A DNA stretch of 64,000 nt from Escherichia coli (lineage in GTDB: Bacteria; Pseudomonadota; Gammaproteobacteria; Enterobacterales; Enterobacteriaceae). Positions 35,391 through 64,000 of this stretch are shown in pieces. The first letter of the stretch is position 1, and each line of letters starts with the position of its first letter. A model generated the notes under the pieces. It worked only from the letters and a program-made list of their open reading frames with translations, did no database searches and had not been told where the DNA came from. Where the stretch lies: assembly GCF_024298765.1 (NCBI RefSeq), contig NZ_CP101210.1; one strand, 5' to 3'. The position numbers were made by a program, and so were the translations under genes.

Positions 35391-35647
35391 AGCTTAAATC
35401 CTGAGCTTCCTGTCCTGGAAACATTCCGTCGGTAAAACCTTACCGCCTTGCTTAATGATGTGAACTGAAGTCAACGGAGATCATTCACTCTGAACCACAT
35501 CCGGTGTTCTGTCCCTTGTCGGTGACCTGATCTTCCCGTTCTGCCCCGGTTCTTCACTTATTCCATCAACCCCATCCGCAAACCATAACACGTCAGCTTA
35601 TTCACGGGCAGGACGCATTGTGGGCTGCGCATAACGGAGCATATCTT

Positions 35648-36208
35648 ATGAATGCTATCCCTTATTTCGACTATAGCCTGGCCCCCTTCTGGCCATCTTA
35701 TCAGAACAAAGTCATCGGCGTCCTTGAGCGTGCGCTGCGTGAGCAGTCCGGCTCACGGATACGGCGGATCCTGCTTCGTCTGCCGTGTGAATATGACAAT
35801 ACCTTCAACAGCAGAACGACCTGGTTTGGTATGGATTTTATCGAAACCGTCAGTGCGCTGATGAATGCAACACCCGGACGTGACCTTTGCTGGCTCCTGA
35901 CCCGTCATCCTGAAAAACCGGAATACCATGTGGTGCTGTGCGTCAGACAGGAGTATTTCGACGGCCCCGAACTGGATCGGTTGATTCTGGATGCCTGGAG
36001 TAACGTGCTGGGTTTCGCGTCACCAGGTGAAGCAAAGCCGTACCAGAAGCAGATCACCCGGGATGTGGTACTGGATCGCCGGTCACCGGACTGCGAAGCC
36101 CTGTTTAAGGACCTTATCTGGGCGTTCAGTGATTTCGCCCGCGATCGCCGTGGAGTGCGCGATCCGGAAGCCCGTTGCCTCGCCGGTAATCCCGGTTGGC
36201 AGTGCTGA
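35648..36208 (+). CDS. YagK/YfjJ family protein (inovirus Gp2-like), second paralogue
   Basis: Start placed at ATG 35648 (ACGGAG RBS); YHVVLCVRQEYFD core. Confidence 0.45.
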   Translation: MNAIPYFDYSLAPFWPSYQNKVIGVLERALREQSGSRIRRILLRLPCEYDNTFNSRTTWFGMDFIETVSALMNATPGRDLCWLLTRHPEKPEYHVVLCVRQEYFDGPELDRLILDAWSNVLGFASPGEAKPYQKQITRDVVLDRRSPDCEALFKDLIWAFSDFARDRRGVRDPEARCLAGNPGWQC

Positions 36209-36276
36209 AAGCAGCATTCCATCCCATACCTCGTATTACCCCATTCTTCATCAATCTCACAGAGGATATTCTGACC

Positions 36277-36507
36277 ATGTTGACCACAATAAGCCACGAC
36301 AGCGTGTTGCTGCGTGCCGACGATCCCCTGATCGACATGAACTACATCACCAGTTTCACCGGCATGACCGATAAATGGTTTTACAGGCTGATCAGTGAAG
36401 GTCATTTCCCTAAACCCATCAAACTGGGGCGCAGCAGCCGCTGGTACAAAAGTGAAGTAGAGCAGTGGATGCAGCAGCGAATTGAGGAATCACGAGGAGC
36501 AGCATGA
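36277..36507 (+). CDS. alpA: AlpA-family phage/island transcriptional regulator
   Basis: Small HTH protein ...FTGMTDKWFYRLISEGHFPKPIKLGRSSRWYKSEVEQW; start chosen at internal ATG of the 103-aa ORF. Confidence 0.5.
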   Translation: MLTTISHDSVLLRADDPLIDMNYITSFTGMTDKWFYRLISEGHFPKPIKLGRSSRWYKSEVEQWMQQRIEESRGAA

Positions 36508-36732
36508 AACGAGTTGTGATGCCGGTACGCTGGCAATGTGCAAAATGCCGGCGCTGGTATTGCGGAAATCAGCTCTGTCCCTGGTGCTGGCGACATTACC
36601 GTTCATTTTCCTGCTGACCCTCTCCGGTCAGCCAGCAGGTTGTAGCTCTTTCCTGACTGATTCGTTATTCCTTTCGTCCCGTCAGTCACTGGTGTTTGTA
36701 TCGTACTGTGCTGGTGTTGATGTGCGTTTTCC

Positions 36733-37275
36733 GTGTGTCTGCACCGGCTTAACAAAATTCACAGGGGTAAAATAGTGCAAATAACCGAAGCCTTACTTTC
36801 AGCGCCGGGGGAAATCCGGCGTTTTGTTCAGCAGGGGGTGGACCACTGGCCGCGTCTGCTGGCATTTCACTTCACGCTCCATTCGGCAGAAGGAAACATC
36901 AACGGGCAACAGATTCATGCATTCTGTACTTCCTTTTATGAACGTATTACTGAGCGTAATCACACGACCAGTCCATCATCGCCGGTGGTATTACGCTGGT
37001 TGCGGGAACAACATGGAGGAGCAACAATGCGATGCCTGTTGCTGCTCAGCCAGACGAGTATTTGTCACCCGCGAGCCAGTGTCACAGTTGATGAACAATG
37101 TTCGCAAGTGGTGGATTTACTGCAGCAGACCTGGCGGGGGATGGATACGGGCGGACAATGTCGGGTGGAAAGGTGTTTTCGGGTTACCCGGCCTGATACA
37201 TCAGAGCAATACGTTGCGTTAAAAACGGCTGTTCAGTCTCTGATGCCACTGGTTATTGCAACAATCATCCGGTGA
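36733..37275 (+). CDS. hypothetical island protein, possibly truncated
   Basis: 180-aa ORF downstream of alpA; no family recognised. Confidence 0.3.
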   Translation: MCLHRLNKIHRGKIVQITEALLSAPGEIRRFVQQGVDHWPRLLAFHFTLHSAEGNINGQQIHAFCTSFYERITERNHTTSPSSPVVLRWLREQHGGATMRCLLLLSQTSICHPRASVTVDEQCSQVVDLLQQTWRGMDTGGQCRVERCFRVTRPDTSEQYVALKTAVQSLMPLVIATIIR

Positions 37276-37304
37276 TGACCGGGAGAAATATCGACTCTTC
37301 CGTT

Positions 37305-37527
37305 AATTTTTACAGACTGATAAAGTTTTGTCTGCTGAATCTTTATACGGAATTCTTTTCAGTATGCGTACACGAATTGATTATCTGGCGGATAAATACT
37401 GTTTTACAGAACTGAATGAATCGCCCCGTCTTCGCCGGCAATGGCAGGATGTCCTGGATGAGTGCCGGCAGACAGAGGCAGGGCCGGAAGAACGGTTGCG
37501 TATTGCACTGTTGAATGTGGATTACGT
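37305..37527 (+). repeat. copy 2 of ~220-bp diverged segment (5-prime end of gene at 22855), fused to tssF
   Basis: Encodes ..AESLYGILFSMRTRIDYLADKYCFTELNESPRL.. up to ..LLNVDYV, then switches into the tssF frame. Confidence 0.7.
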
Positions 37528-39206
37528 CAGCAATGCTGAATCTGGATAAGCCTGGTGCCTGCGATCCCAGTGTGGAACGTCTGTTTGAAGGCTTTGCCTT
37601 CCTGATGGGACGTTTGCGTGAAAAGCTGGATGATGACCTGCCGGAGCTCACCGAAGGTCTGGTGAGTCTGCTGTGGCCGCACTATATGCGGACTATCCCG
37701 TCGCTGGCCATCGTTGAGTTCTCGCCTGACTGGCGTAGTCTGCGTCAGGCCGAAATACTGGCTGAAGGCTTTTCCGTTCTGTCCCGTCCTGTCGGGCCGC
37801 ATAAAACCGCCTGCCAGTACCGGGCGACCCGCGATGTGTTGCTACAACCGCTGCACCTTGCAGATGCCCGTCTCCATACTGAATCCGATGGCCGCTCTGC
37901 TATCCGTCTGCGCTTCGAATGCCCTGAAAAAGTGGACTGGAGTAAAGCCGGGATCGACAAAGTCGCCATTTTTCTTAACGCAGAGGCGCCGGTAAGTGCT
38001 GCGCTACATCTGGCAATGACCCGGCGTGTACATGCCATGTATGCGCGTCATGCCGGGACATATACCGGACGTCGTCAGTTTGACGGCTGGTGCAGACCCA
38101 TGGGCTTTGACGACAATGACTGCCTGTGGAAGAAAGCTGATACAGCCTTCAGTGGTTACCAGTTGCTGCTGGAGTATTTCAGCTTCCGTCCGAAGTTTAT
38201 GTTTGTTGAACTGCGCGGCCTCGACACCATTGGGCTCACTGCGGCCAGTACCTGGTTTGAAATCGACATTGTGCTCAGTGAAGCCTGGTCATCCGGTTTG
38301 CCTTTTGAGACAGAAAACTTCCGCCTGCACTGTGCGCCGGTTATCAATCTCTTTACCCTGGAAGCCGACCCGCTGATCCTTAACCCGCTGGATAACGAGT
38401 ACCTGCTCAGGCCGCTGCGTCTTCAGGATGGTCACACCGAAATTTACAGCGTCGATAACATTCACGGCTCGGTGAAGAACGGCAGACACCCTTATGTCCC
38501 GTTCACCAGCTTCCGGCACCGGGGCGGTATGATGCGCCACGATGCTCCTGAACGTTATTACCACACCCGTGTGAAACGGGGACCCTCCGGCCTGTATGAC
38601 ACATGGTTAGTTCTCGGGGGGCGTTCGTTCGAGCTGGAGCAGTTGTCCGATAAACCGGAGTCCCTCTCGATGCGAATCACCGCGACCAACGGGCAGCTTC
38701 CGCGCAGGGCGCTGGAAAGTACGCTCCTGGACAGGGTGGTCAAAACCGGCAAAGTCCCCGTCAGAGTCCTGAACCTGACCGCACCGACGATGCCACTGTA
38801 TCCCCCGGCAAATGACCGGTTTCACTGGCGGGTGATGAGTCACCTCGGATCAAACTTTCTCAGCATGATGGACAATCCGGAGGTGCTGCGGGGGACGCTG
38901 GCGCTCTATGACTGGACCGACGATGAAATGAACCGCCGCCGGCTTGAAGCCATCGTTGCTGTGAAGCACACCCTGATCCGCCGTTTTGAAAAGGGCTTTA
39001 TGCTCCGTGGCGTGGACATTGAGGTCACGCTGAATATGGATAATTTTGCCGGCGAGGGCGATGTGAATCTCTTCGGGGAGATGCTGCACCGTTTCTTTGC
39101 GCTCTATGCTGATGTTCACCTTTTCAACCAGCTCACACTGGTACTGCAACCCACAGGGAAACGACTGAGATGGAAAGAGAATCACAGCCAGCACGTACCG
39201 GGCTGA
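37515..39206 (+). pseudogene. tssF: type VI secretion baseplate subunit TssF, N-terminally truncated
   Basis: DPSVERLFEGFAFLMGRLREKLDDDLPELTEGLVSLLWPHY matches the TssF N-region; first ~40-50 residues replaced by unrelated sequence. Confidence 0.7.
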
Positions 39207-55302: not shown

Positions 55303-55380
55303 TTTATTAATTATCTTATGTAGCTGAGTATTAGGTGACAAATGATCAGTCTTTCCCACGACAATTGTATCGTTCTGATG

Positions 55381-55690
55381 AACTCATATTGACGCATTTT
55401 TCGGGCGTATCAGCCCCCGGTGTTACGAATGGTGCATACGAACGATCGCAGTTTGACGATGGTTGATTTATTTTGTTGCGCAGGGGCAATCGCCTGCTAG
55501 GTACCGAAGGCTGGCTCTGAAGTACTGAGTCGGGTGATCGCGTCTGGCCGCTGGCTGCGAATTACTGACACGGGATTGGTGGCAGGTGATGAAATCCTGT
55601 CCCGGAAATGGCTCCGGATTGATTCAAGTTCTGACCCGCTGTCAGCCCGCGTGGTTGCTGCTCTGGCTCATTTCCTGTCGTCAGTTTTCT
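55381..55690 (+). repeat. copy 2 of diverged intergenic repeat (partner at 30024-30240), ~110 bp longer
   Basis: Same conserved blocks as copy 1 with an extra internal segment (about 55520-55630). Confidence 0.5.
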
Positions 55691-55853
55691 CATGCCCGGC
55701 TGCGGGTTTTCGGACTGAATGATAATATCTGACGACAGGAGTCGCTCATCTATCGAAGGTAAATCTCCCTGAAAGTAATAGTTCTGGCAGGGGGAACAGA
55801 ACTGTAATCATTGTGCCGTAATTTGAGTTGGCTACCTTTGCTACATGAAAACT

Positions 55854-56327
55854 TTATTCACTTTGTTCATGTTGATTGGGTTTTTCAATGAGGAAAGTTT
55901 CCAGGGTACAATCTCCATTAACCTGTTTCCGCAAAGCAAGTGGCATTTTACCGTTACCAGACCACGTCCTGGTTTCGCCGTTCTCATCCTCAAAGATATA
56001 TTTCGCTTTTCTCACACCGCCTTTGGGTTTTCGTTTGGTTTCCGTTGTCCCTGCAATAGCAGAAACTGGACCCTGCCATTCTTCCGGGTCAAGCCCCACA
56101 GAAACGATGTACTCAAATACCTGTTGACATTTAGTTTCCAGTTCCTTACGTTCAGCCGCTTTTCGTTCAGCATCTTCACGGCGTTCTTCAATAACAGTGT
56201 TGAGCTTTTCCTGCATGTCGAGTAATTGCTCAAAATCAAGTTCGCGTACATACGTGCGTAGTGAACGAATATTCGTCATTGTCCGACTGATGATGCTGTA
56301 TTCTTCTTCTTTAGTCAGTTTGCACAT
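55854..56327 (-). CDS. H-NS family nucleoid-associated protein (island-borne paralogue)
   Basis: 157 aa; C-terminal KYIFEDENGETRTWSGNGKMP matches the H-NS DNA-binding motif; strong RBS AGAGGGG. Confidence 0.75.
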   Translation of the reverse strand: MCKLTKEEEYSIISRTMTNIRSLRTYVRELDFEQLLDMQEKLNTVIEERREDAERKAAERKELETKCQQVFEYIVSVGLDPEEWQGPVSAIAGTTETKRKPKGGVRKAKYIFEDENGETRTWSGNGKMPLALRKQVNGDCTLETFLIEKPNQHEQSE

Positions 56328-56645
56328 AATTCCCCTCTCTTTTGCAATAAACGTGTTTTCTCTGGTGGGTTGATTACCCAGTCTTTTTTACTGTGTCTGA
56401 CATTTTGTACTGTGGTGCAGTTGTAATGCAAACCTTCCGGGCTTCTGGGACACAGCATTTCAGTCCGGGCCCCATCATTACCATTTTGTTGATTCGAAAC
56501 GAAAACCCTCACCAATATCGATCGATTTTACCGATCGATATGATCACATCGATCGGTTGTAACCATTTTACCCTGTCTTTTGCATGGTTTTAAAATAGGC
56601 AACCCTCTTTGTCGGGTAGGGCAAGAACCAACGGAGATGATTGAA

Positions 56646-57383
56646 ATGAAAAAGGTTATTGCGGTTTCAGCGCTTGCAATGGCAGGCATGTTTTCGGCCC
56701 AGACTCTGGCTGATGAGAGCAAAACAGGCTTTTATGTGACCGGTAAAGCCGGTGTTTCTGTTATGTCACTTTCAGAGCAACGTTTCGTTGATGGTGAAGG
56801 GGCATGGGCGGATAAATACAAAGGCAGTGACAAAAGTGATACGGTTTTTGGCGCAGGCCTTGCGGTGGGATACGATTTTTATCAGCACTACAATGTGCCG
56901 GTGCGTACTGAAGTGGAGTTTTATGGCCGCGGTAACGCTGAATCAAAATATCGTCTGAGTTATTGGGAAAGTGCCGGTGGTGCCGAGTTCGATGATGCAC
57001 AGAACAAGCTCAGTGTAAACACGCTGATGCTGAATGCGTATTATGATTTCAGAAACAGCAGTGCATTCACGCCATGGATATCTGCTGGTCTGGGTTATGC
57101 ACGGGTTCATCATAAAACTTCGTACATATATACCGATAACAGCCCGGCAGGCAGTGAAGTTTATTCAGCTTCAGCGTCAAAATACGAAAACAACCTGGCA
57201 TGGAGCCTGGGTGCCGGTGTTAAATACGATGTGACGCAGGATTTCAGCCTTGACCTCAGCTACCGGTATCTGGATGCAGGGGATTCCACTCTGACTTATA
57301 AAGATGAGGATGGTGCTAAATATAAATCCTCTGTTGATGTCAGAAGTAACGAGTTTATGTTAGGTGCAACATATAACTTCTGA
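56646..57383 (+). CDS. outer-membrane beta-barrel protein (OmpA-like/opacity family)
   Basis: Start at ATG 56646; signal peptide MKKVIAVSALAMAGMFSAQTLA; alternating aromatic pattern and C-terminal ...YNF. Confidence 0.6.
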   Translation: MKKVIAVSALAMAGMFSAQTLADESKTGFYVTGKAGVSVMSLSEQRFVDGEGAWADKYKGSDKSDTVFGAGLAVGYDFYQHYNVPVRTEVEFYGRGNAESKYRLSYWESAGGAEFDDAQNKLSVNTLMLNAYYDFRNSSAFTPWISAGLGYARVHHKTSYIYTDNSPAGSEVYSASASKYENNLAWSLGAGVKYDVTQDFSLDLSYRYLDAGDSTLTYKDEDGAKYKSSVDVRSNEFMLGATYNF

Positions 57384-58039
57384 CAGCCATTTCTGCCTGC
57401 GCTTTGGAGCACAGTAAAGTGCAGGTATGACAAATCAATAACAGATATCCTGATGATATTCTCCCTCTGGCAACTAATAATTTCAGATGAATGAAATATA
57501 AATAGAGCAAAAATATTACTTTCGTTGATTTTTTACAGGGGGCAGGTAGCGCGCAGTATGGTTGTCAGTCTGTTAAATGAAAAAGGACTGTTGTTGGGAC
57601 ACGTTGTTTTTTGTCATATCAGCCCTTCCGGAAACAATAAACCGTATTACGAAGGAGGCTCCCGGACATCTGGTTTAAAGTTTGAACATAATCAAATAAA
57701 AATCTGTTGCCGGAGGGCGTAGTTTTGTGGAACTGACAAATGATGTCAGGAGTATTTATATAATTCACTTACACAAGAGTAATACTACAGGTGCAGTGAT
57801 TTATGGTTGACTCAACGAGAAATCGCTCAGCGGAGCGTTTGACTGGATATCGGTAGCGGGATGTCCTTTATGTCATTTTTGCCTTCTGCCGTAGGAACCA
57901 CAACGTGGGCCCAGACCCGTTGCTTCTCCTTCGGACTCTGTGCCGTATCATCACTGCGGAAGTTCCTGAGAAACCACTGTGAGAGCATGTGCTGATTTCT
58001 GGTGTATCCCATAATAGTATCCTTACATCACTGAATACA

Positions 58040-58712
58040 ATTTAATCGTAAGCTCCATCGGCGGCGGCTGACCTGATTTTCCGGTGGGTTTGCCGGATTA
58101 ACCCGGGGAAGGCCTCTGAGTCCGTAACGTTGTTCAGCGACAGGTCAGCGCAGATGATTTCATGTGTTTTACTGTCAACTGCCAGATGCAGCTTACGCCA
58201 TATACGACGGCGTTCCTGGCCATGCTTTTTGACTTTCCACTCGCCTTCACCGAAGACCTTCAGCCCGGTGGAATCAATTACCAGGTGTGCGATTTCACCC
58301 CGGGTGGGCGTTTTGAAACTGATATTAACCGACTTTGCCCGCCTGCTGACACAGCTGTAATCCGGGCAGCGTAGCGGAACGTTCATCAGAGAAAAAATGG
58401 AATCAATAAAGCCCTGCGCAGCGCGCAGGGTCAGCCTGAATACGCGTTTAATGACCAGCACAGTCGTGATGGCAAGGTCAGAATAGCGCTGAGGTCTGCC
58501 TCGTGAAGAAGGTGTTGCTGACTCATACCAGGCCTGAATAGCTTCATCATCCAGCCAGAAAGTTATGGAGCCACGGTTGATGAGGGCTTTATTGTAGGTG
58601 GGCCAGTTGGTGATTTTGAACTTTTGCTTTGCCACGGAACGGTCTGCGTTGTCGGGAAGATACGTGATCTGATCCTTCAACTCAGCAAAAGTTCGATTTA
58701 TTCAACAAAACC
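58040..58712 (-). mobile_element. IS903: IS903, truncated (about 670 of 1057 bp retained)
   Basis: Inverted repeat GATTTATTCAACAAAACC ending at 58712 beside the bla stop; transposase ORF breaks off after ...ADGAYD. Confidence 0.8.
58042..58680 (-). pseudogene. IS903 transposase, C-terminally truncated
   Basis: 212 aa matching the N-terminal two-thirds of IS903 transposase as recalled. Confidence 0.8.
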
Positions 58713-58714
58713 AG

Positions 58715-59608
<894 letters not shown>

Positions 59609-59706
59609 TCAATCCGTGTTACATCAGTATTCCCTAAATTCCACGTGTGTTTTTTATTAGCTTCAAAAATCACTATTTCACGAAGAATTTAGACTGCTTC
59701 TCACAC

Positions 59707-59736
59707 ATTGTAACATTATTTACAACCACCTTTCAA
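59707..59736 (-). promoter_or_regulatory. ISEcp1 outward promoter for blaCTX-M (-35 TTGAAA, -10 TACAAT)
   Basis: Minus strand reads TTGAAA-18 bp-TACAAT between the IS10 insertion and the ISEcp1 right end. Confidence 0.6.
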
Positions 59737-59821
59737 TCATTTTTGATAAATCATTGATTTCATCTTTGCTGCAATGATACTTAATAAACTCTGCAAGTTA
59801 TCCACAGAGCAACACTCAATT

Positions 59822-61150
59822 CTGAGAGATCCCCTCATAATTTCCCCAAAGCGTAACCATGTGTGAATAAATTTTGAGCTAGTAGGGTTGCAGCCACGAG
59901 TAAGTCTTCCCTTGTTATTGTGTAGCCAGAATGCCGCAAAACTTCCATGCCTAAGCGAACTGTTGAGAGTACGTTTCGATTTCTGACTGTGTTAGCCTGG
60001 AAGTGCTTGTCCCAACCTTGTTTCTGAGCATGAACGCCCGCAAGCCAACATGTTAGTTGAAGCATCAGGGCGATTAGCAGCATGATATCAAAACGCTCTG
60101 AGCTGCTCGTTCGGCTATGGCGTAGGCCTAGTCCGTAGGCAGGACTTTTCAAGTCTCGGAAGGTTTCTTCAATCTGCATTCGCTTCGAATAGATATTAAC
60201 AAGTTGTTTGGGTGTTCGAATTTCAACAGGTAAGTTAGTTGCTAGAACCCATGGCTCCTTTGCCGACGCTGAGTAGATTTTAGGTGACGGGTGGTGACAA
60301 TGAGTCCGTGTCGAGCGCTGATTTTTTCGGCCTTTAGAGCGAGATTTATACAATAGAATTTGGCATGAGATTGGATTGCTTTTAGTCAGCCTCTTATAGC
60401 CTAAAGTCTTTGAGTGACTAGATGACATATCATGTAAGTTGCTGATAGGTTTCCAGTTTTCCGCTCCTAGGTCTGCATATTGTACTTTTCCTCTTACTCG
60501 ACTTAACCAGTACCAACCCAGCTTCTCAACGGATTTATACCATGGCACTTTAAAGCCAGCATCACTGACAATGAGCGGTGTGGTGTTACTCGGTAGAATG
60601 CTCGCAAGGTCGGCTAGAAATTGGTCATGAGCTTTCTTTGAACATTGCTCTGAAAGCGGGAACGCTTTCTCATAAAGAGTAACAGAACGACCGTGTAGTG
60701 CGACTGAAGCTCGCAATACCATAAGTCGTTTTTGCTCACGAATATCAGACCAGTCAACAAGTACAATGGGCATCGTATTGCCCGAACAGATAAAGCTAGC
60801 ATGCCAACGGTATACAGCGAGTCGCTCTTTGTGGAGGTGACGATTACCTAACAATCGGTCGATTCGTTTGATGTTATGTTTTGTTCTCGCTTTGGTTGGC
60901 AGGTTACGGCCAAGTTCGGTAAGAGTGAGAGTTTTACAGTCAAGTAATGCGTGGCAAGCCAACGTTAAGCTGTTGAGTCGTTTTAAGTGTAATTCGGGGC
61001 AGAATTGGTAAAGAGAGTCGTGTAAAATATCGAGTTCGCACATCTTGTTGTCTGATTATTGATTTTTCGCGAAACCATTTGATCATATGACAAGATGTGT
61101 ATCCACCTTAACTTAATGATTTTTACCAAAATCATTAGGGGATTCATCAG
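59822..61150 (-). mobile_element. IS10: IS10 (1329 bp) inserted in ISEcp1
   Basis: Ends CTGAGAGATCCCCTCATAATTTCCCC (59822) and CTGATGAATCCCCTAATGATTTTGG (61150); perfect 9-bp direct repeat CACTCAATT at 59813-59821 and 61151-61159. Confidence 0.95.
59835..61043 (-). CDS. IS10 transposase
   Basis: 402-aa ORF matching IS10 transposase as recalled. Confidence 0.9.
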   Translation of the reverse strand: MCELDILHDSLYQFCPELHLKRLNSLTLACHALLDCKTLTLTELGRNLPTKARTKHNIKRIDRLLGNRHLHKERLAVYRWHASFICSGNTMPIVLVDWSDIREQKRLMVLRASVALHGRSVTLYEKAFPLSEQCSKKAHDQFLADLASILPSNTTPLIVSDAGFKVPWYKSVEKLGWYWLSRVRGKVQYADLGAENWKPISNLHDMSSSHSKTLGYKRLTKSNPISCQILLYKSRSKGRKNQRSTRTHCHHPSPKIYSASAKEPWVLATNLPVEIRTPKQLVNIYSKRMQIEETFRDLKSPAYGLGLRHSRTSSSERFDIMLLIALMLQLTCWLAGVHAQKQGWDKHFQANTVRNRNVLSTVRLGMEVLRHSGYTITREDLLVAATLLAQNLFTHGYALGKL

Positions 61151-61177
61151 CACTCAATTTTATTGATGATATTCTTA

Positions 61178-62440
61178 TTATACCAGACATTTTTCATACA
61201 CTCCCTTGTACGGATAGTTTTCCGACAACTTCATGATTACATATCTTGCGGTTTTGATTATTTTTGCTGCAAGAAATACATACTTCAAACGAAAGGTCTT
61301 TATTTGCTGTCTGTATTCTGAAGAGTCCAAGGAATCAAACTTGAACAACAAAAATAGGTTATATGAAAGCATCATCATTTGAAACACGGCTTCATTCGCC
61401 CAAAATGACTTTAGCAAGAGATGACCCACCGCCATGTCGTATTTGGCTTCTTTGATATAGTTTTCAGCATTACCACGCTTTTCATAGTATATAACTACTT
61501 TTTCAGAAAGCAAGGTAGTATTTGTTACAAAGAAAAAGTAGTCGTATTCGGAACCTTCTAAAAGTGATAATTGTGCTCTTTCTTTTTCTGGTTTCAGTAC
61601 GCGAGATACGACAAATCTTCTGTCTTTTTCCCATTTAACTAATTTTGTATACAGTTCTGTAGTTTCTCTACCTTCTTCTCCTTTAACGAATACAATTGAT
61701 GAATTCGTTGCTTGTGAGGTGAGTGTAGAATAACTTTTGGCTTTAATTAAATATTTGCATCCAAGAGATTCTATCGTTTCGATAATTTTTTCATCAAAGT
61801 AGCCACTATCCATTCGAAATAAAATTTCTAAATCGTCTGATTTGATGTTAGCAACAATTTCTTTGATCATTTCCGCAGCACCGTTTGCAGTGTAAGTATT
61901 GCCACTTCTTACAAATCCGGTAACATATGCTTTTAATTCGTCGCAAAATGCAAATTGGATATTGTAGCATCGGTTTCCCAGTTTCTTAGGATTATATCCT
62001 TTTGACGCACCTTCTTGATGACCTTCTACGTTAATTACACTACTATCAATATCAATCGTAATGGATGTCAATTTACTTTTAGTGAGCAGTTTTTTAAAGA
62101 CTTTAAAATTAATGTCTCTAAACATTTGGGTTGTCTTGAAGTTGAAGTTTCCTAGAAACCGTGACACTGTTTCAGGTTCTTTTACGGAAATATCAAACTC
62201 GTTGACGAGGGGATCATTTTGAAGTAGCTTTAGACGTTCTAACTTATCAATGCCAATGAAGTGACCGCAGAGCATGGTCTTTATATGATTCATCTTGATT
62301 TTATTTGTTGAGTCATTATCAAATACGAGGTCATTTTCAATAAAATCAAAAATCCCATTGCTTTTTGCATTCTCAAGGAGCAGAAAAAGACCTGCATTTG
62401 ATGTTAGATTCTTAGCTTTGAAATCAATTTTATTAATCAT
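61178..62440 (-). CDS. tnpA: ISEcp1 transposase
   Basis: 420-aa ORF matching ISEcp1 transposase as recalled. Confidence 0.9.
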   Translation of the reverse strand: MINKIDFKAKNLTSNAGLFLLLENAKSNGIFDFIENDLVFDNDSTNKIKMNHIKTMLCGHFIGIDKLERLKLLQNDPLVNEFDISVKEPETVSRFLGNFNFKTTQMFRDINFKVFKKLLTKSKLTSITIDIDSSVINVEGHQEGASKGYNPKKLGNRCYNIQFAFCDELKAYVTGFVRSGNTYTANGAAEMIKEIVANIKSDDLEILFRMDSGYFDEKIIETIESLGCKYLIKAKSYSTLTSQATNSSIVFVKGEEGRETTELYTKLVKWEKDRRFVVSRVLKPEKERAQLSLLEGSEYDYFFFVTNTTLLSEKVVIYYEKRGNAENYIKEAKYDMAVGHLLLKSFWANEAVFQMMMLSYNLFLLFKFDSLDSSEYRQQIKTFRLKYVFLAAKIIKTARYVIMKLSENYPYKGVYEKCLV

Positions 62441-62627
62441 AATTAGAACCCCTTTTTACTACTTTTCTTACTATTATTTTACCATATATCGAGTCATAAA
62501 AGCTGATAATTTAACATATTTTTGAGCACTTTTCTTTCACCCAATGGGTGAAAGCTGAATTTCGAAGGAATGCATATTTATCAAGGCTTTGATTATGCTT
62601 TTTGAAGTACTGACGTAGAATCTAGGT

Positions 62628-63488
62628 TTGATTGATATCCTTGTTGAATTACAAAATTATGGCGTGGTCAGTCGCTATAATTTGATGAAAAAATACAACA
62701 TCACTGAGCGAACAGCATATCGTGATCTGAATATGCTTTCTCCCTTTATTGAAGCCTGTGGCGATGGAAAATACCGGCTTATTTCGGCAAGAGCAGGAAA
62801 CCAGAGCAAAGAATCACTGCACAAATCTCTGGCCAGGTTACTGGATACTGATGCGATTTTTCCTGAACGGGATGAAGGTTTCTGGCAGAAATTAGAAAAC
62901 AGGGCAACCGAAAGGCATATTCGTGTTCAGTTTCATAACCCTGAGCACACCATCAGGGATGATTTAAGAAAATATCTTGATGTTCTTGAAAAAGCGATCT
63001 GCAACAGTAATGTTTGCCAGATTGCATATGCCGGTAAGACCAGAATCGTTCATCCCTATAAATTAACTAATCAGAGAGGTATATGGTATTTGCTGGCTAC
63101 TGAAGAGAACAAGTTAAAGTCGTTTTCATTAGCTAAAATAAAATGGCTGGATATAAAAAAAGAAAAGTTTGCAAAGAGTGATGAAATCCAGTCACTGGTA
63201 AGTGAGTCATGTGACCCGTGGGTGAGCGACAAAACATTTGATGTTGTGTTGTTCATTTACAGTAATATCGCCCATTATTTTTTGCGACGGGACTTACTTC
63301 CTTACCAGCAATTGCTACACAAACATGACAATGGCATTACGCTGTCATGCAAGGCTGCACATAAAAATCAAATTGTCCCGTTGATTTTATACTGGCTACC
63401 GAATGTTGAAATTATTGAACCAGTATGGCTGAAAGAAGCCGTGTTAACAATGTTAGGAAAATACCTTACTGCTGAGAATGTTTCCTGA
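62628..63488 (+). pseudogene. WYL-domain transcriptional regulator, 5-prime end removed by ISEcp1 insertion
   Basis: HTH (YNITERTAYRDLNML) and WYL motif (RGIWYLLA); ORF begins 2 bp after the ISEcp1 inverted repeat with no ATG. Confidence 0.6.
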
Positions 63489-63536
63489 AATATTTCAGTT
63501 GACTGATGATAAAGCAATCTGTACAGGAGGAAAAGA

Positions 63537-64000
63537 ATGGCGTTACCTTTTATTATTTTGGGTGTGGCTGCCGGCGCTGCGGCATTCGGCGGAAAAAAAG
63601 CTTACGATGGATATCAAAAAAAGTCAGAAGCAGAGGATATCCTCGAAAAAGCAAAAGAGCGTTACGAGGAGCATAAAGAAAAATTTGAGCAGGCTGAAGC
63701 TCAGACATCATCAAAATTAACAACGCTCGGAAATAAAGAGCTTGAGATTGGTAAAGATTTCAGTGAGTTCGACAGGATTGCTGCTGAGCTCCTGGCGCGT
63801 CTGGAAAAAGAGGGCAATAAAGACCTGAAACTGAGTGTCCCGCAACATAACATCAATAAGATTCAGAACCTGGCCATTTCAGCGACAGAATATCTCAGTA
63901 CGGTCGTTGCTGCCGGAGTTTCCGGGGCTGCTGCGGGTTTTGCTGTGTATAGCGGAGTGATGGCATTTGCTGCGGCTTCTACAGGTACACCCATTGCAGC
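63537..64000 (+). CDS. hypothetical protein (N-terminal hydrophobic segment, coiled coil), partial, runs off window
   Basis: AGGAGG RBS then ATG at 63537; open frame to window end (MALPFIILGVAAGAAAFGG...); absent from ORF track because no stop. Confidence 0.5.
   Translation, partial: MALPFIILGVAAGAAAFGGKKAYDGYQKKSEAEDILEKAKERYEEHKEKFEQAEAQTSSKLTTLGNKELEIGKDFSEFDRIAAELLARLEKEGNKDLKLSVPQHNINKIQNLAISATEYLSTVVAAGVSGAAAGFAVYSGVMAFAAASTGTPIA

What the first reader, a model, noticed from the sequence alone, without database searches (positions are those of the whole stretch)
55854..57383. Island-borne H-NS paralogue next to an outer-membrane beta-barrel gene
A 157-aa H-NS family protein with the canonical C-terminal DNA-binding motif is encoded beside an OmpA-like/opacity-type outer-membrane protein. 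Acquired H-NS paralogues can modulate silencing of horizontally acquired DNA, which is abundant and AT-rich in this window.
Basis: partly seen in the sequence, partly recalled or inferred. Interest (0 to 1): 0.4.

Follow-up and report, generated by a model that had tools for sequence, protein, structure and literature searches.

The report
IncX-type H-NS gene beside hra2 adhesin
Both genes are real, but the "H-NS paralogue" is a chromosomal copy of the H-NS type normally carried by IncX resistance plasmids, with a non-canonical DNA-binding loop, and its neighbour is the already described adhesin gene hra2, so this is a modest new member of known families.

Summary
Both ORFs exist exactly as reported. 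The window is an E. coli chromosome, 100% identical to strain ECJXMCRH7. The genes lie in a ~62-kb island between cadC and tRNA-Phe (pheU).

The 157-aa protein (55854-56327, minus strand) is a real H-NS-family protein. It is not H-NS, StpA or Hfp (37-41% identity).
- Its nearest relatives are the H-NS homologues of IncX plasmids (HppX/Sfx clade): IncX4 67-68%, IncX1 about 55%, IncX3 about 47%.
- It shares their N-terminal extension and their position-30 signature.
- Its DNA-binding loop is TWSGNGKMP, not the canonical TWTGQGRTP. The same NGK loop occurs in IncX4 HppX-CROD2, which a 2026 preprint reports to bind A/T-rich DNA by ChIP-seq.

The outer-membrane gene (56646-57383) is hra2, a characterised accessory adhesin of the Hra1/Hek/Tia family.

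This H-NS lineage is chromosomal in about 2% of complete E. coli genomes. In every context inspected it sits divergently beside an Hra-family gene (Hra2, Tia-like, Hra1-like or Hek-like). Constraint is relaxed (dN/dS 0.4-0.8) and frameshift alleles are common.

[quoted passage not shown] This role is inferred, not shown.

Verdict: a new member of known kinds, of modest interest.

The parts
55854..56327 (-). hnsX: an intact 157-aa H-NS-family gene of the IncX-plasmid (HppX/Sfx) lineage (WP_000335224.1). Layout: N-terminal extension at residues 1-9; dimerisation and oligomerisation helices to about residue 84; basic linker at about 85-107; DNA-binding domain at 108-148 with the loop W122-S-G-N-G-K-M-P129.
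   Evidence: ORF. Pfam and NCBIfam. PDB phmmer. Alignments A1, A3 and A5. AlphaFold and Foldseek. RefSeq annotation.
56332..56337 (-). Shine-Dalgarno sequence GAGGGG, 4 nt upstream of the hnsX ATG. It supports the 157-aa start.
   Evidence: Read directly from the sequence.
56328..56645 (.). 318-bp divergent intergenic region shared by hnsX and hra2 (57% A+T). The same ~319-bp spacing recurs in every other hnsX/Hra-family pair inspected.
   Evidence: Spacing in L016-L019, L028-L031 and L034-L037.
56515..56556 (.). GATC-rich palindromic element: ATATCGATCG-N7-CGATCGATAT plus a further CGATCG. It has four GATC sites, at 56520, 56533, 56542 and 56551. The element is conserved upstream of tia, hra1-like and other Hra-family genes. 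It is a candidate operator or Dam-sensitive site; no function has been shown.
   Evidence: Sequence. GATC positions. Alignment A4.
56565..56596 (.). Overlapping back-to-back sigma-70-like promoter matches. Plus strand: TTTACC-18-TAAAAT, towards hra2. Minus strand: TTTAAA-18 / TTAAAA-17-TAAAAT, towards hnsX. These are consensus matches only (9 of 12).
56646..57383 (+). hra2 (heat-resistant agglutinin 2), a 245-aa outer-membrane beta-barrel adhesin of the Hra1/Hek/Tia/Hes family. The predicted signal peptide MKKVIAVSALAMAGMFSAQTLA is inferred from the sequence. GenBank JF808724 annotates the start three codons earlier, at 56637.
   Evidence: 98.0% nucleotide identity to the machine-read JF808724.1 hra2 sequence, against 76.5% to tia. 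70% amino-acid identity to Tia and 67% to an Hra1-like protein. Pfam PF13505.
55303..55764 (.). Tail of the sucrose (scrKYABR) module downstream of scrR. It marks the left boundary of the hnsX-hra2 cassette. Positions 55400-55764 are also 97% identical to scr-bearing IncF plasmids.
   Evidence: The left flank varies in other hnsX contexts.
57852..62625 (.). A 4.8-kb insertion relative to APEC E16002: IS903 remnant, blaCTX-M-14, then ISEcp1 interrupted by IS10/ISVsa5. It lands about 40 nt into the WYL/HTH regulator gene that natively follows hra2. This is context, not part of the cassette.
   Evidence: blastn of L008 against the window. Annotations.

Best explanation
hnsX encodes a functional accessory H-NS-family protein of the IncX-plasmid (HppX/Sfx) lineage. 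It has become resident on the chromosome as a two-gene cassette with an Hra-family adhesin gene, here hra2.

Proposed mechanism:
1. The N-terminal helices form homo-oligomers. Through the conserved Arg (H-NS R12 = R21 here) and the N-terminal extension, they also form heteromers with host H-NS, StpA and Hha.
2. The C-terminal domain inserts its N-G-K loop into the minor groove of A/T-rich DNA.
3. The resulting filaments or bridges repress transcription. The most probable primary target is the shared 318-bp hnsX/hra2 control region. Other A/T-rich parts of the island are secondary targets.

Shown here: family membership, lineage, intact reading frame, fold, and the recurrent divergent pairing with Hra-family genes.
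Taken from the literature: HppX proteins, including the NGK-bearing IncX4 protein, bind A/T-rich DNA and repress transcription.
Inferred only: that this chromosomal copy is expressed, that it silences rather than activates, and that hra2 is its target.
For: Family and fold.

Lineage:
- tblastn ranks IncX4 plasmids first (68%), then IncX1 (about 55%), IncX3 (47%) and IncHI2-size plasmids (about 41%).
- HppX-CROD2 is 67% identical and has the identical WSGNGK(R/M)PLAL loop.
- H-NS is 41% identical, StpA 39% and Hfp/H-NS2 37%.
- Fitzgerald et al. state that HppX alone diverges from H-NS at position 30 and at Q112-G113-R114. The window protein has Q at the position-30 equivalent and NGK at the hook.

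Function of the nearest characterised relatives:
- HppX-CROD2 binds A/T-rich DNA with an H-NS-like profile in E. coli K-12 (PMC13308145).
- HppX3 is a transcriptional repressor (PMC11915502).
- Sfx needs its N-terminal extension for heteromers with H-NS, StpA and Hha (PMC11796372).

Long-term purifying selection: dN/dS is about 0.2 against IncX4 genes at dS of about 1.

Cassette:
- In all chromosomal contexts inspected, hnsX alleles lie divergently, about 319 bp from an Hra-family gene, while the other flank varies among scrR, IS66, PerC genes, dndB, a gspM remnant and a sulfatase-family (phosphoethanolamine-transferase-like) gene.
- These contexts cover 4 hnsX allele types and Hra2, Tia-like (98%, 94%, 83%), Hra1-like (98%) and Hek/Hes-like OMP partners.
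- 125 of 5426 complete genomes carry the window-type pair.
- 109 of 121 are identical to the window across the frameshift-prone segment.
Against: - No expression, binding or phenotype data exist for this gene.
- Constraint within the chromosomal lineage is relaxed: dN/dS of 0.77, 0.42 and 0.39 between intact alleles, against 0.18 between plasmid copies. The counts are small.
- Independent inactivating lesions are common. A +G insertion after nt 364 gives the 124-aa form seen on 833 contigs. A deletion of A143 and multiple lesions occur in the pheV-island and other alleles.
- Most hra2-bearing genomes (about 290 of about 413) lack hnsX altogether, so hra2 does not need it.
- The intergenic region is only moderately A/T-rich, at 57%.
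- HppX-CROD2's strong preference for its own plasmid is proposed to depend on a plasmid topoisomerase. No such gene is adjacent here.
Confidence: 0.5

Rival explanations
1. Decaying passenger. hnsX is a leftover of an old capture from an IncX-like element. It has no selected role on the chromosome. The window copy merely happens to be intact still.
For: - Many independent frameshift or stop alleles occur.
- A truncated 124-aa form is seen on 833 contigs.
- dN/dS is 0.4-0.8 among intact chromosomal alleles.
- Most hra2 loci have lost or never had hnsX.
Against: - The window-type allele is unbroken across the tested segment in 109 of 121 complete genomes. It is identical in unrelated hosts such as APEC O1:K1:H7.
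- dS of about 1 against plasmid genes, with dN/dS of about 0.2, shows long survival under constraint.
- Start codon, SD sequence and all invariant family residues are retained.
- Four diverged allele types keep the same position beside Hra-family genes.
Confidence: 0.22
2. Island-wide 'stealth' or back-up H-NS. The protein acts globally, like Sfh of IncHI plasmids or Hfp/H-NS2. It tops up the H-NS pool so that the ~62-kb acquired island does not titrate host H-NS. It has no special relation to hra2.
For: - HppX-CROD2 expressed in E. coli K-12 binds the same A/T-rich chromosomal regions as H-NS.
- The stealth model for plasmid H-NS homologues is summarised in PMC13308145 and in PMC7544231.
- The island contains several segments of 34-39% GC.
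Against: - The only invariant neighbour across contexts is the Hra-family gene, while the rest of the island varies.
- The cassette also occurs in small pheV or pheU islands with little other cargo.
- Frequent loss of the gene argues against a strong fitness role.
Confidence: 0.18
3. Anti-silencer or H-NS antagonist. HnsX, or its common truncated 124-aa form lacking the DNA-binding loop, counteracts H-NS at the hra promoter. It would do so by forming defective heteromers, in the manner of H-NST, or by displacing H-NS, in the manner of Ler. The outcome would be activation of the adhesin gene.
For: - The changed hook (NGK) and changed oligomerisation positions could alter filament properties.
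- The +G364 allele keeps the whole N-terminal oligomerisation region and loses only the DNA-binding loop. It is very common.
- That the H-NS family contains antagonists (Ler, H-NST) rests on my own background knowledge, not on a tool result.
Against: - Characterised HppX proteins are repressors.
- The truncations look like ordinary frameshifts at several different sites rather than one selected form.
Confidence: 0.1

Closest known systems
HppX-CROD2 (IncX4 plasmid pCROD2, Citrobacter rodentium; WP_001293133.1) and the near-identical H-NS homologues of IncX4 mcr-1-type plasmids
   Same: - 67-68% amino-acid identity over the full length.
- The same N-terminal extension (M-x-x-LTKE-E/D-EY).
- The same Q at the H-NS position-30 equivalent.
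- The same WSGNGKxPLAL DNA-binding loop.

   Different: - The window gene is chromosomal, in a pheU island.
- It is not preceded by topB-hha as on IncX4 plasmids. It is divergently paired with hra2 instead.
- dS of about 1 shows old separation, not a recent plasmid integration.
- The linker is only about 41% identical.
Sfx (R6K, IncX2) / HppX3 (IncX3) / IncX1 H-NS homologues: the Sfx or HppX clade
   Same: - Same clade by identity ranking: 46-57%.
- An N-terminal extension, which Sfx needs for heteromers with H-NS, StpA and Hha.
- A non-QGR hook.

   Different: - These proteins carry RGR, whereas the window protein carries NGK.
- They repress plasmid T4SS/conjugation genes, which are absent here.
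- A second chromosomal allele (P0054; strain A41 locus CP028735.1:4153062-4153523) has the RGR, IncX1-like C-terminal domain in the same hra cassette. Wang et al. mention that locus only as lying 'within chromosomal transposons'.
Hfp / H-NS2 (island-borne third H-NS of UPEC 536 and EAEC 042)
   Same: It is an accessory H-NS-family gene on an E. coli genomic island.
   Different: - Only 37% identical.
- Hfp has canonical QGR, no N-terminal extension and 135 aa.
- It lies in asnW/serU islands (per Fitzgerald et al.) or an ssrA island (seen in strain 042), not beside an Hra-family gene.
H-NS and StpA (core E. coli)
   Same: - Same two-domain architecture and fold.
- Conserved R12, R15, L26 and L33 equivalents.
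- Conserved W-x-G-x-G-x-x-P scaffold of the DNA-binding loop.

   Different: - 41% and 39% identity.
- Fails both NCBIfam equivalog cut-offs.
- NGK in place of QGR.
- A 9-residue N-terminal extension and a C-terminal tail (KPNQHEQSE).
Hra2 (heat-resistant agglutinin 2, EAEC strain 60A, GenBank JF808724; Mancini et al. 2011, J Bacteriol 193:4813)
   Same: - The window outer-membrane gene is this gene. It shares 98.0% nucleotide identity with a machine-read copy that carries OCR errors.
- The downstream regulator gene is the same one that JF808724's title calls deoR.
   Different: - In the window the downstream regulator is cut off by the ISEcp1-blaCTX-M-14 unit.
- The adherence phenotype of Hra2 is taken from how other papers summarise it and from my recollection of the abstract. 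The paper itself is not held.

Membership tests
H-NS family (Pfam PF22470 + PF00816) | N-terminal coiled-coil dimerisation site and central dimer-dimer site | tested here: met
   PF22470 at E=1.7e-19 over residues 11-83. phmmer to H-NS 1-83 crystal chain 3nr7, residues 15-89, E=4e-11. Equivalents of R12, R15, L26 and L33 are conserved. The AlphaFold model has helices at 5-27, 31-75 and 80-83 with pLDDT above 83.
H-NS family (Pfam PF22470 + PF00816) | C-terminal DNA-binding domain fold (beta-hairpin, helix, 3-10 helix) | tested here: met
   phmmer to 2l93, 1hnr and 2lrx at E=1e-8 to 7e-6. The model has strands at 109-112 and 118-121 and helices at 129-136 and 141-144. The top Foldseek hits are the H-NS, Ler and StpA C-terminal domains, with target-normalised TM of 0.69 to 2l93. 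PF00816 itself scores 24.1 bits, just under its 25.6 cut-off.
H-NS family (Pfam PF22470 + PF00816) | Canonical Q-G-R AT-hook-like loop (TWTGQGRTP) | tested here: not met
   The loop is TWSGNGKMP. The G and the W...P scaffold are kept, with Q to N and R to K.
H-NS or StpA orthologue (NCBIfam NF008193 / NF007656 equivalogs) | Score above the curated equivalog cut-off | tested here: not met
   92.2 against 211 bits and 90.1 against 202 bits. Identity is 41% and 39%.
Hfp / H-NS2 | Close sequence relationship to Hfp, a QGR loop, and an asnW/serU/EARL-type island location | tested here: not met
   37% identity to EAEC 042 H-NS2 (L014:25098-25505). The loop is NGK. The island is at pheU.
HlpC (Fitzgerald et al. 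2020) | Clade signature given in the paper: divergent from H-NS at position 33, with QGR 100% conserved | tested here: not met
   The window protein keeps L at the position-33 equivalent and lacks QGR. HlpC sequences themselves could not be retrieved for a direct alignment.
HppX / Sfx clade (IncX-plasmid H-NS homologues) | Closest sequence relatives are IncX H-NS homologues | tested here: met
   tblastn ranking across 72,556 plasmids gives IncX4 68%, IncX1 55% and IncX3 47%, ahead of all other plasmid types. HppX-CROD2 is 67% identical.
HppX / Sfx clade (IncX-plasmid H-NS homologues) | Clade signatures: substitution at H-NS position 30, a non-QGR hook and an N-terminal extension | tested here: met
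   Q39 aligns with H-NS L30. The hook is NGK. A 9-residue extension is shared with the IncX1 and IncX4 proteins.
HppX / Sfx clade (IncX-plasmid H-NS homologues) | Encoded in the IncX backbone immediately downstream of topB (with or without hha) | tested here: not met
   The gene is chromosomal. Its neighbours are scrR and hra2, with no topB or hha nearby.
HppX / Sfx clade (IncX-plasmid H-NS homologues) | Binds A/T-rich DNA and represses transcription | not testable with these tools
   Known for HppX-CROD2, HppX3 and Sfx. Not tested for this protein.
Hra family of outer-membrane adhesins (Hra1, Hek, Tia, Hra2, Hes) | Sequence identity to a named member | tested here: met
   98.0% nucleotide identity to hra2 JF808724.1:342-1088 as printed, with OCR noise, in the supplement of PMC5539235, against 76.5% to tia U20318. 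70% amino-acid identity to RefSeq-annotated Tia and 67% to an Hra1-like protein.
Hra family of outer-membrane adhesins (Hra1, Hek, Tia, Hra2, Hes) | Integral outer-membrane beta-barrel with a signal peptide | tested here: met
   PF13505 OMP_b-brl at E=3e-20 over residues 31-267 of the long ORF. The N-terminus MKKVIAVSALAMAGMFSAQTLA-DE and a C-terminal ...TYNF ending in Phe are visible in the sequence.
Hra family of outer-membrane adhesins (Hra1, Hek, Tia, Hra2, Hes) | Confers adherence or agglutination | not testable with these tools
   Reported for Hra2 of strain 60A, as summarised in PMC5539235. The primary paper is not held.

The most novel reading that the evidence does not exclude
The hnsX/Hra-family pair may be a self-contained, mobile adhesin-expression switch.
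- A plasmid-derived H-NS variant with an NGK or RGR hook would be dedicated to one promoter region.
- It would act together with the conserved GATC-rich palindrome (four Dam sites in 35 bp) and the overlapping back-to-back promoters.
- The result would be heterogeneous or phase-variable Hra adhesin expression.
- The recurrent frameshift alleles would then be a population-level way of locking the switch.

The cassette would also be a natural test of the 'cognate plasmid specificity' idea, because it is an HppX protein living without its plasmid or its topoisomerase.
Probability: 0.1. Interest if true: 0.55.

Novelty: new member of a known kind. Interest (0 to 1): 0.33.

Why it matters
H-NS homologues of IncX plasmids are under active study. 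They repress conjugation of NDM and MCR plasmids, and they seem to recognise 'their own' replicon.

A long-established chromosomal branch of that lineage qualifies the published statement that each H-NS clade is exclusively chromosomal or exclusively plasmid-borne (PMC7544231). This branch is found in about 2% of complete E. coli genomes. It was always beside an Hra-family adhesin gene in the contexts inspected, and it lacks the plasmid topoisomerase.

The branch also offers a natural control for the topology-based model of cognate-plasmid specificity (PMC13308145). If the protein controls hra2, tia or hra1, it would add a regulator to a poorly understood adhesin family of EAEC, ETEC, ExPEC and APEC.

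If it is only a decaying passenger, the finding is ordinary island content.

Tried and rejected
1. Recent integration of an IncX plasmid. Rejected: there is no topB, hha or T4SS nearby, nucleotide identity to IncX4 genes is only about 74%, and dS is about 1.
2. Identity with Hfp/H-NS2. Rejected at 37% identity.
3. Identity with HlpC. Rejected on the clade signatures stated in the paper. HlpC sequences could not be fetched for a direct alignment.
4. The many short N-terminal-only relatives (104-148 aa) as a distinct H-NST-like family. Rejected: they are frameshift products of the same gene. The delA143 allele reads into the alternative frame that is visible in the window at 56012-56251.
5. The 124-aa form as an IS insertion. 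Rejected: it is a +G frameshift after nt 364. One genome does carry an IS1203 insertion (H32).
6. 'Microcin DNA binding protein' Q46969 (P0083). It shares only the N-terminal two-thirds and then runs into unrelated sequence. I did not pursue it.
7. Plasmid location of the whole locus. Rejected: only one 62-kb plasmid carries hra2, and none carries the pair.
8. Reading the primary Hra2 paper. It is not held. The sequence was recovered instead from another paper's supplement.
9. Literature linking H-NS to Hra genes. None was found in the held library.
Full report
**Where the window comes from.** The region 55400-57700 is 100% identical to the chromosome of E. coli ECJXMCRH7, a chicken isolate (NZ_CP067342.1). 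Window position x corresponds to record position 4382785 - x on the reverse strand.
- RefSeq annotation shows core genes (melB ... cadCBA) up to window position ~18.2 kb.
- After that come an integrase remnant and typical island cargo.
- The other end lies beyond the window, at int, tRNA-Phe(pheU), dicD and dsbD.
- The two genes therefore lie in a ~62-kb pheU island. It also carries T6SS remnants, IS66 copies, the sucrose (scrKYABR) and raffinose operons, and an ISEcp1-blaCTX-M-14 unit.

**The observation.** The ORF listing gives a 157-aa ORF at 55854-56327 (minus strand) and a divergent ORF ending at 57383.

*The H-NS-like ORF:*
- Pfam Histone_HNS_N scores E=1.7e-19. Histone_HNS (the C-terminal domain) scores 24.1 bits, just under its 25.6 cut-off.
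- phmmer against the PDB matches H-NS residues 9-83 (3nr7, 4e-11) and the H-NS and StpA C-terminal domains (2l93, 1e-8; 2lrx, 7e-6).
- An AlphaFold model built on a 34-sequence alignment (mean pLDDT 78) shows long N-terminal helices, a disordered linker (residues 88-103) and a beta-beta-alpha C-terminal domain.
- The three best Foldseek matches to that model are the H-NS, Ler and StpA C-terminal domains.
- The ATG at 56327 has a GAGGGG Shine-Dalgarno 4 nt upstream. The N-terminal residues it adds are conserved in relatives. The 157-aa reading is therefore right.

*The claim of a canonical motif is not right:*
- The loop is TWSGNGKMP, against TWTGQGRTP in H-NS and StpA.
- The protein scores far below the NCBIfam H-NS and StpA equivalog thresholds.

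**Which H-NS homologue it is.** Identity is 41% to K-12 H-NS, 39% to StpA and 37% to the island-borne Hfp/H-NS2 of EAEC 042.

A tblastn search of 72,556 plasmids ranks small conjugative plasmids first. Inspection shows these are:
- IncX4, 68% identity, in the backbone module topB-hha-hns;
- IncX1, about 55%;
- IncX3, 47%.

These sit ahead of IncHI2-size plasmids at about 41%. HppX-CROD2 of the IncX4 plasmid pCROD2 is 67% identical and has the same WSGNGK-x-PLAL loop.

Fitzgerald et al. (PMC7544231) define this group as HppX. They state that HppX alone diverges from H-NS at dimerisation position 30 and at Q112-G113-R114. The window protein has Q at the position-30 equivalent and NGK at the hook. 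It keeps L at position 33, which argues against their HlpC clade. It also shares the N-terminal extension (MCKLTKEEEY...) of the IncX1 and IncX4 proteins. In Sfx of R6K that extension is needed for heteromer formation with H-NS, StpA and Hha (PMC11796372).

**Age and state of the chromosomal lineage.** All the closely related copies (95% nucleotide identity or more) in complete E. coli genomes are chromosomal.
- A 61-nt probe finds 125 places in 121 genomes, none on plasmids.
- 125 of 5426 genomes carry the hnsX-hra2 pair at 80% coverage or more.
- Nei-Gojobori estimates give dS of about 1.0 and dN/dS of about 0.2 against IncX4 genes. This is an old separation under constraint, not a fresh plasmid integration.
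- Among intact chromosomal alleles dN/dS is 0.77, 0.42 and 0.39, against 0.18 between two IncX4 copies. The counts are small.

Inactivated alleles are frequent:
- A +G insertion after nt 364 truncates the protein inside the DNA-binding loop. This is the 124-aa form, seen on 833 contigs in the large collection.
- A deletion of A143 produces the 104-aa forms.
- Alleles with several lesions occur in EC361, FXCREC035, AH19B041 and MS1685.

In complete genomes, 109 of 121 copies are identical to the window across the nt 335-395 segment. The window copy is identical to that of APEC O1:K1:H7 E16002.

**The neighbour is hra2.** The outer-membrane gene shows 98.0% nucleotide identity to hra2 of EAEC strain 60A (JF808724.1:342-1088). 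That sequence was reprinted, with machine-reading errors, in the supplement of PMC5539235. Identity to tia is 76.5%.
- The protein is 70% identical to RefSeq-annotated Tia and 67% to an Hra1-like protein. This is close to the values I recall for Hra2 (68% and 64%).
- PMC5539235 summarises the family (Hra1, Hra2, Tia, Hek and its new member Hes) and gives adhesion as the Hra2 phenotype.
- About 413 complete genomes carry hra2 at 95% identity or more.
- Most of them have an integrase or IS remnant upstream instead of hnsX.

**A recurrent cassette.** In every chromosomal context I opened, an hnsX allele lies divergently, about 319 bp from an Hra-family gene, while the other flank differs. The varying flanks are scrR, IS66, PerC-family genes, dndB, a gspM remnant and a sulfatase-family (phosphoethanolamine-transferase-like) gene.

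The partner gene varies:
- Hra2, at 97-99% identity to the window protein;
- Tia-like, at 98%, 94% and 83% to Tia, one of them in a tia-leo context;
- Hra1-like, at 98%;
- a Hek/Hes-like protein at the pheV island.

There are four hnsX allele types. One of them (P0054, 153 aa) keeps the chromosomal first 24 residues but has an RGR-type C-terminal domain 93-98% identical to IncX1-type proteins. That points to recombination with plasmid genes. One such locus, CP028735.1:4153062-4153523, is one of two chromosomal exceptions that Wang et al. mention as lying 'within chromosomal transposons'. The NGK-type allele, the link to Hra-family genes and the extent of the lineage were not found in the literature I could search.

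**The shared control region.** The 318-bp spacer is 57% A+T.
- From about 56490 rightwards it is conserved upstream of tia, hra1-like and other family members (alignment A4).
- That part contains a perfect inverted repeat, ATATCGATCG-N7-CGATCGATAT (56515-56541), plus another CGATCG. Together they hold four GATC sites within 35 bp.
- It is followed by overlapping back-to-back sigma-70-like matches at 56565-56596, one per strand.
- These are sequence observations only.

**Mechanism.** Shown here: a two-domain H-NS-family protein of the HppX lineage, intact, with the conserved oligomerisation residues, an H-NS-type DNA-binding fold, and a fixed position beside Hra-family adhesin genes.

From the literature on its nearest relatives:
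- HppX-CROD2 (NGK hook) binds A/T-rich DNA much as H-NS does when expressed in E. coli K-12, and prefers its own plasmid natively (PMC13308145).
- HppX3 and Sfx repress plasmid T4SS promoters.
- Sfx forms heteromers with H-NS, StpA and Hha.

Inferred: HnsX oligomerises with itself and with host H-NS, StpA and Hha. It binds the minor groove of A/T-rich DNA through the N-G-K loop. It represses transcription, most probably at its own divergent control region with hra2.

I give this about 0.5. The rivals are:
- a decaying passenger (0.22), supported by relaxed dN/dS, many broken alleles and the fact that most hra2 loci lack hnsX;
- an island-wide stealth or back-up H-NS (0.18);
- an antagonist or anti-silencer (0.10).

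**Novelty and score.** Hra2 is already known. The H-NS gene is a new, chromosomal member of a known and currently studied clade. Its only unusual aspects are its location, the absence of the plasmid topB-hha module, and its fixed partnership with Hra-family genes. It mildly contradicts the statement that each H-NS clade is exclusively chromosomal or plasmid-borne (abstract of PMC7544231). It also offers a natural control for the topology model of cognate-plasmid specificity. I rate it 'new member of a known kind', with interest of about 0.33.

Noticed in passing
window 56515-56556: A perfect inverted repeat, ATATCGATCG-N7-CGATCGATAT, plus a further CGATCG. This places four GATC (Dam) sites within 35 bp, about 90-130 bp upstream of hra2. 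The element is conserved upstream of tia, hra1-like and other Hra-family genes. It may be an operator or a methylation-sensitive switch.
   Followed up: partly
window 57852-62625: An IS903 remnant, blaCTX-M-14 and ISEcp1 (itself interrupted by an IS10/ISVsa5 copy at 59835-61043) form a 4.8-kb insertion relative to APEC E16002. The insertion lands about 40 nt into the WYL/HTH regulator gene that natively follows hra2. A second identical ISVsa5 transposase gene lies elsewhere in the island.
   Followed up: partly
window 62628-64000 and L008:11404-17379: Downstream of hra2 lies a conserved block: a WYL-domain regulator, a 359-aa protein, a 523-aa protein (doubtfully annotated as a cobalamin adenosyltransferase), small ORFs and a phosphoethanolamine transferase. 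The 359-aa and 523-aa proteins have no Pfam hits on record. The block's function is unknown.
   Followed up: no
L009, L011, L012, L013, L024, L025 (other E. coli genomes): Hra-family outer-membrane genes are very often followed directly by a phosphoethanolamine transferase gene. Often an integrase and tRNA-Phe (pheV or pheU) come next. This suggests a conserved adhesin plus lipid A/LPS-modification module at Phe-tRNA islands.
   Followed up: no
L016-L019, L033 (P0054 allele): A second chromosomal hnsX allele keeps the chromosomal N-terminus (first 24 aa identical to the window protein). It carries an RGR-hook C-terminal domain 93-98% identical to IncX1-type plasmid proteins. This is evidence for recombination between chromosomal and plasmid H-NS genes.
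   Followed up: partly
window 55400-55764 and L015 (pJJ1887-5): The sucrose PTS module, including 365 bp beyond scrR, is 97% identical to a segment on about 23 IncF plasmids of clinical E. coli. The scr block therefore moves between plasmids and this island.
   Followed up: partly
protein P0083 (UniRef Q46969, 'Microcin DNA binding protein'): An old database entry from a microcin locus shares the N-terminal two-thirds of the IncX1-type H-NS homologue and then runs into unrelated sequence. It is probably a frameshifted copy.
   Followed up: no
window 35400-38700 (record 4344144-4347348): T6SS baseplate genes tssF and tssG are present only as truncated pseudogenes, flanked by IS66 elements, inside the same island.
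   Followed up: no
window 56366-56380 (+): A terminator-like hairpin, TGGGTTGATTACCCA followed by a T-run, lies on the plus strand just upstream of the hnsX start codon. It points towards hra2. Its role is unknown.
   Followed up: no
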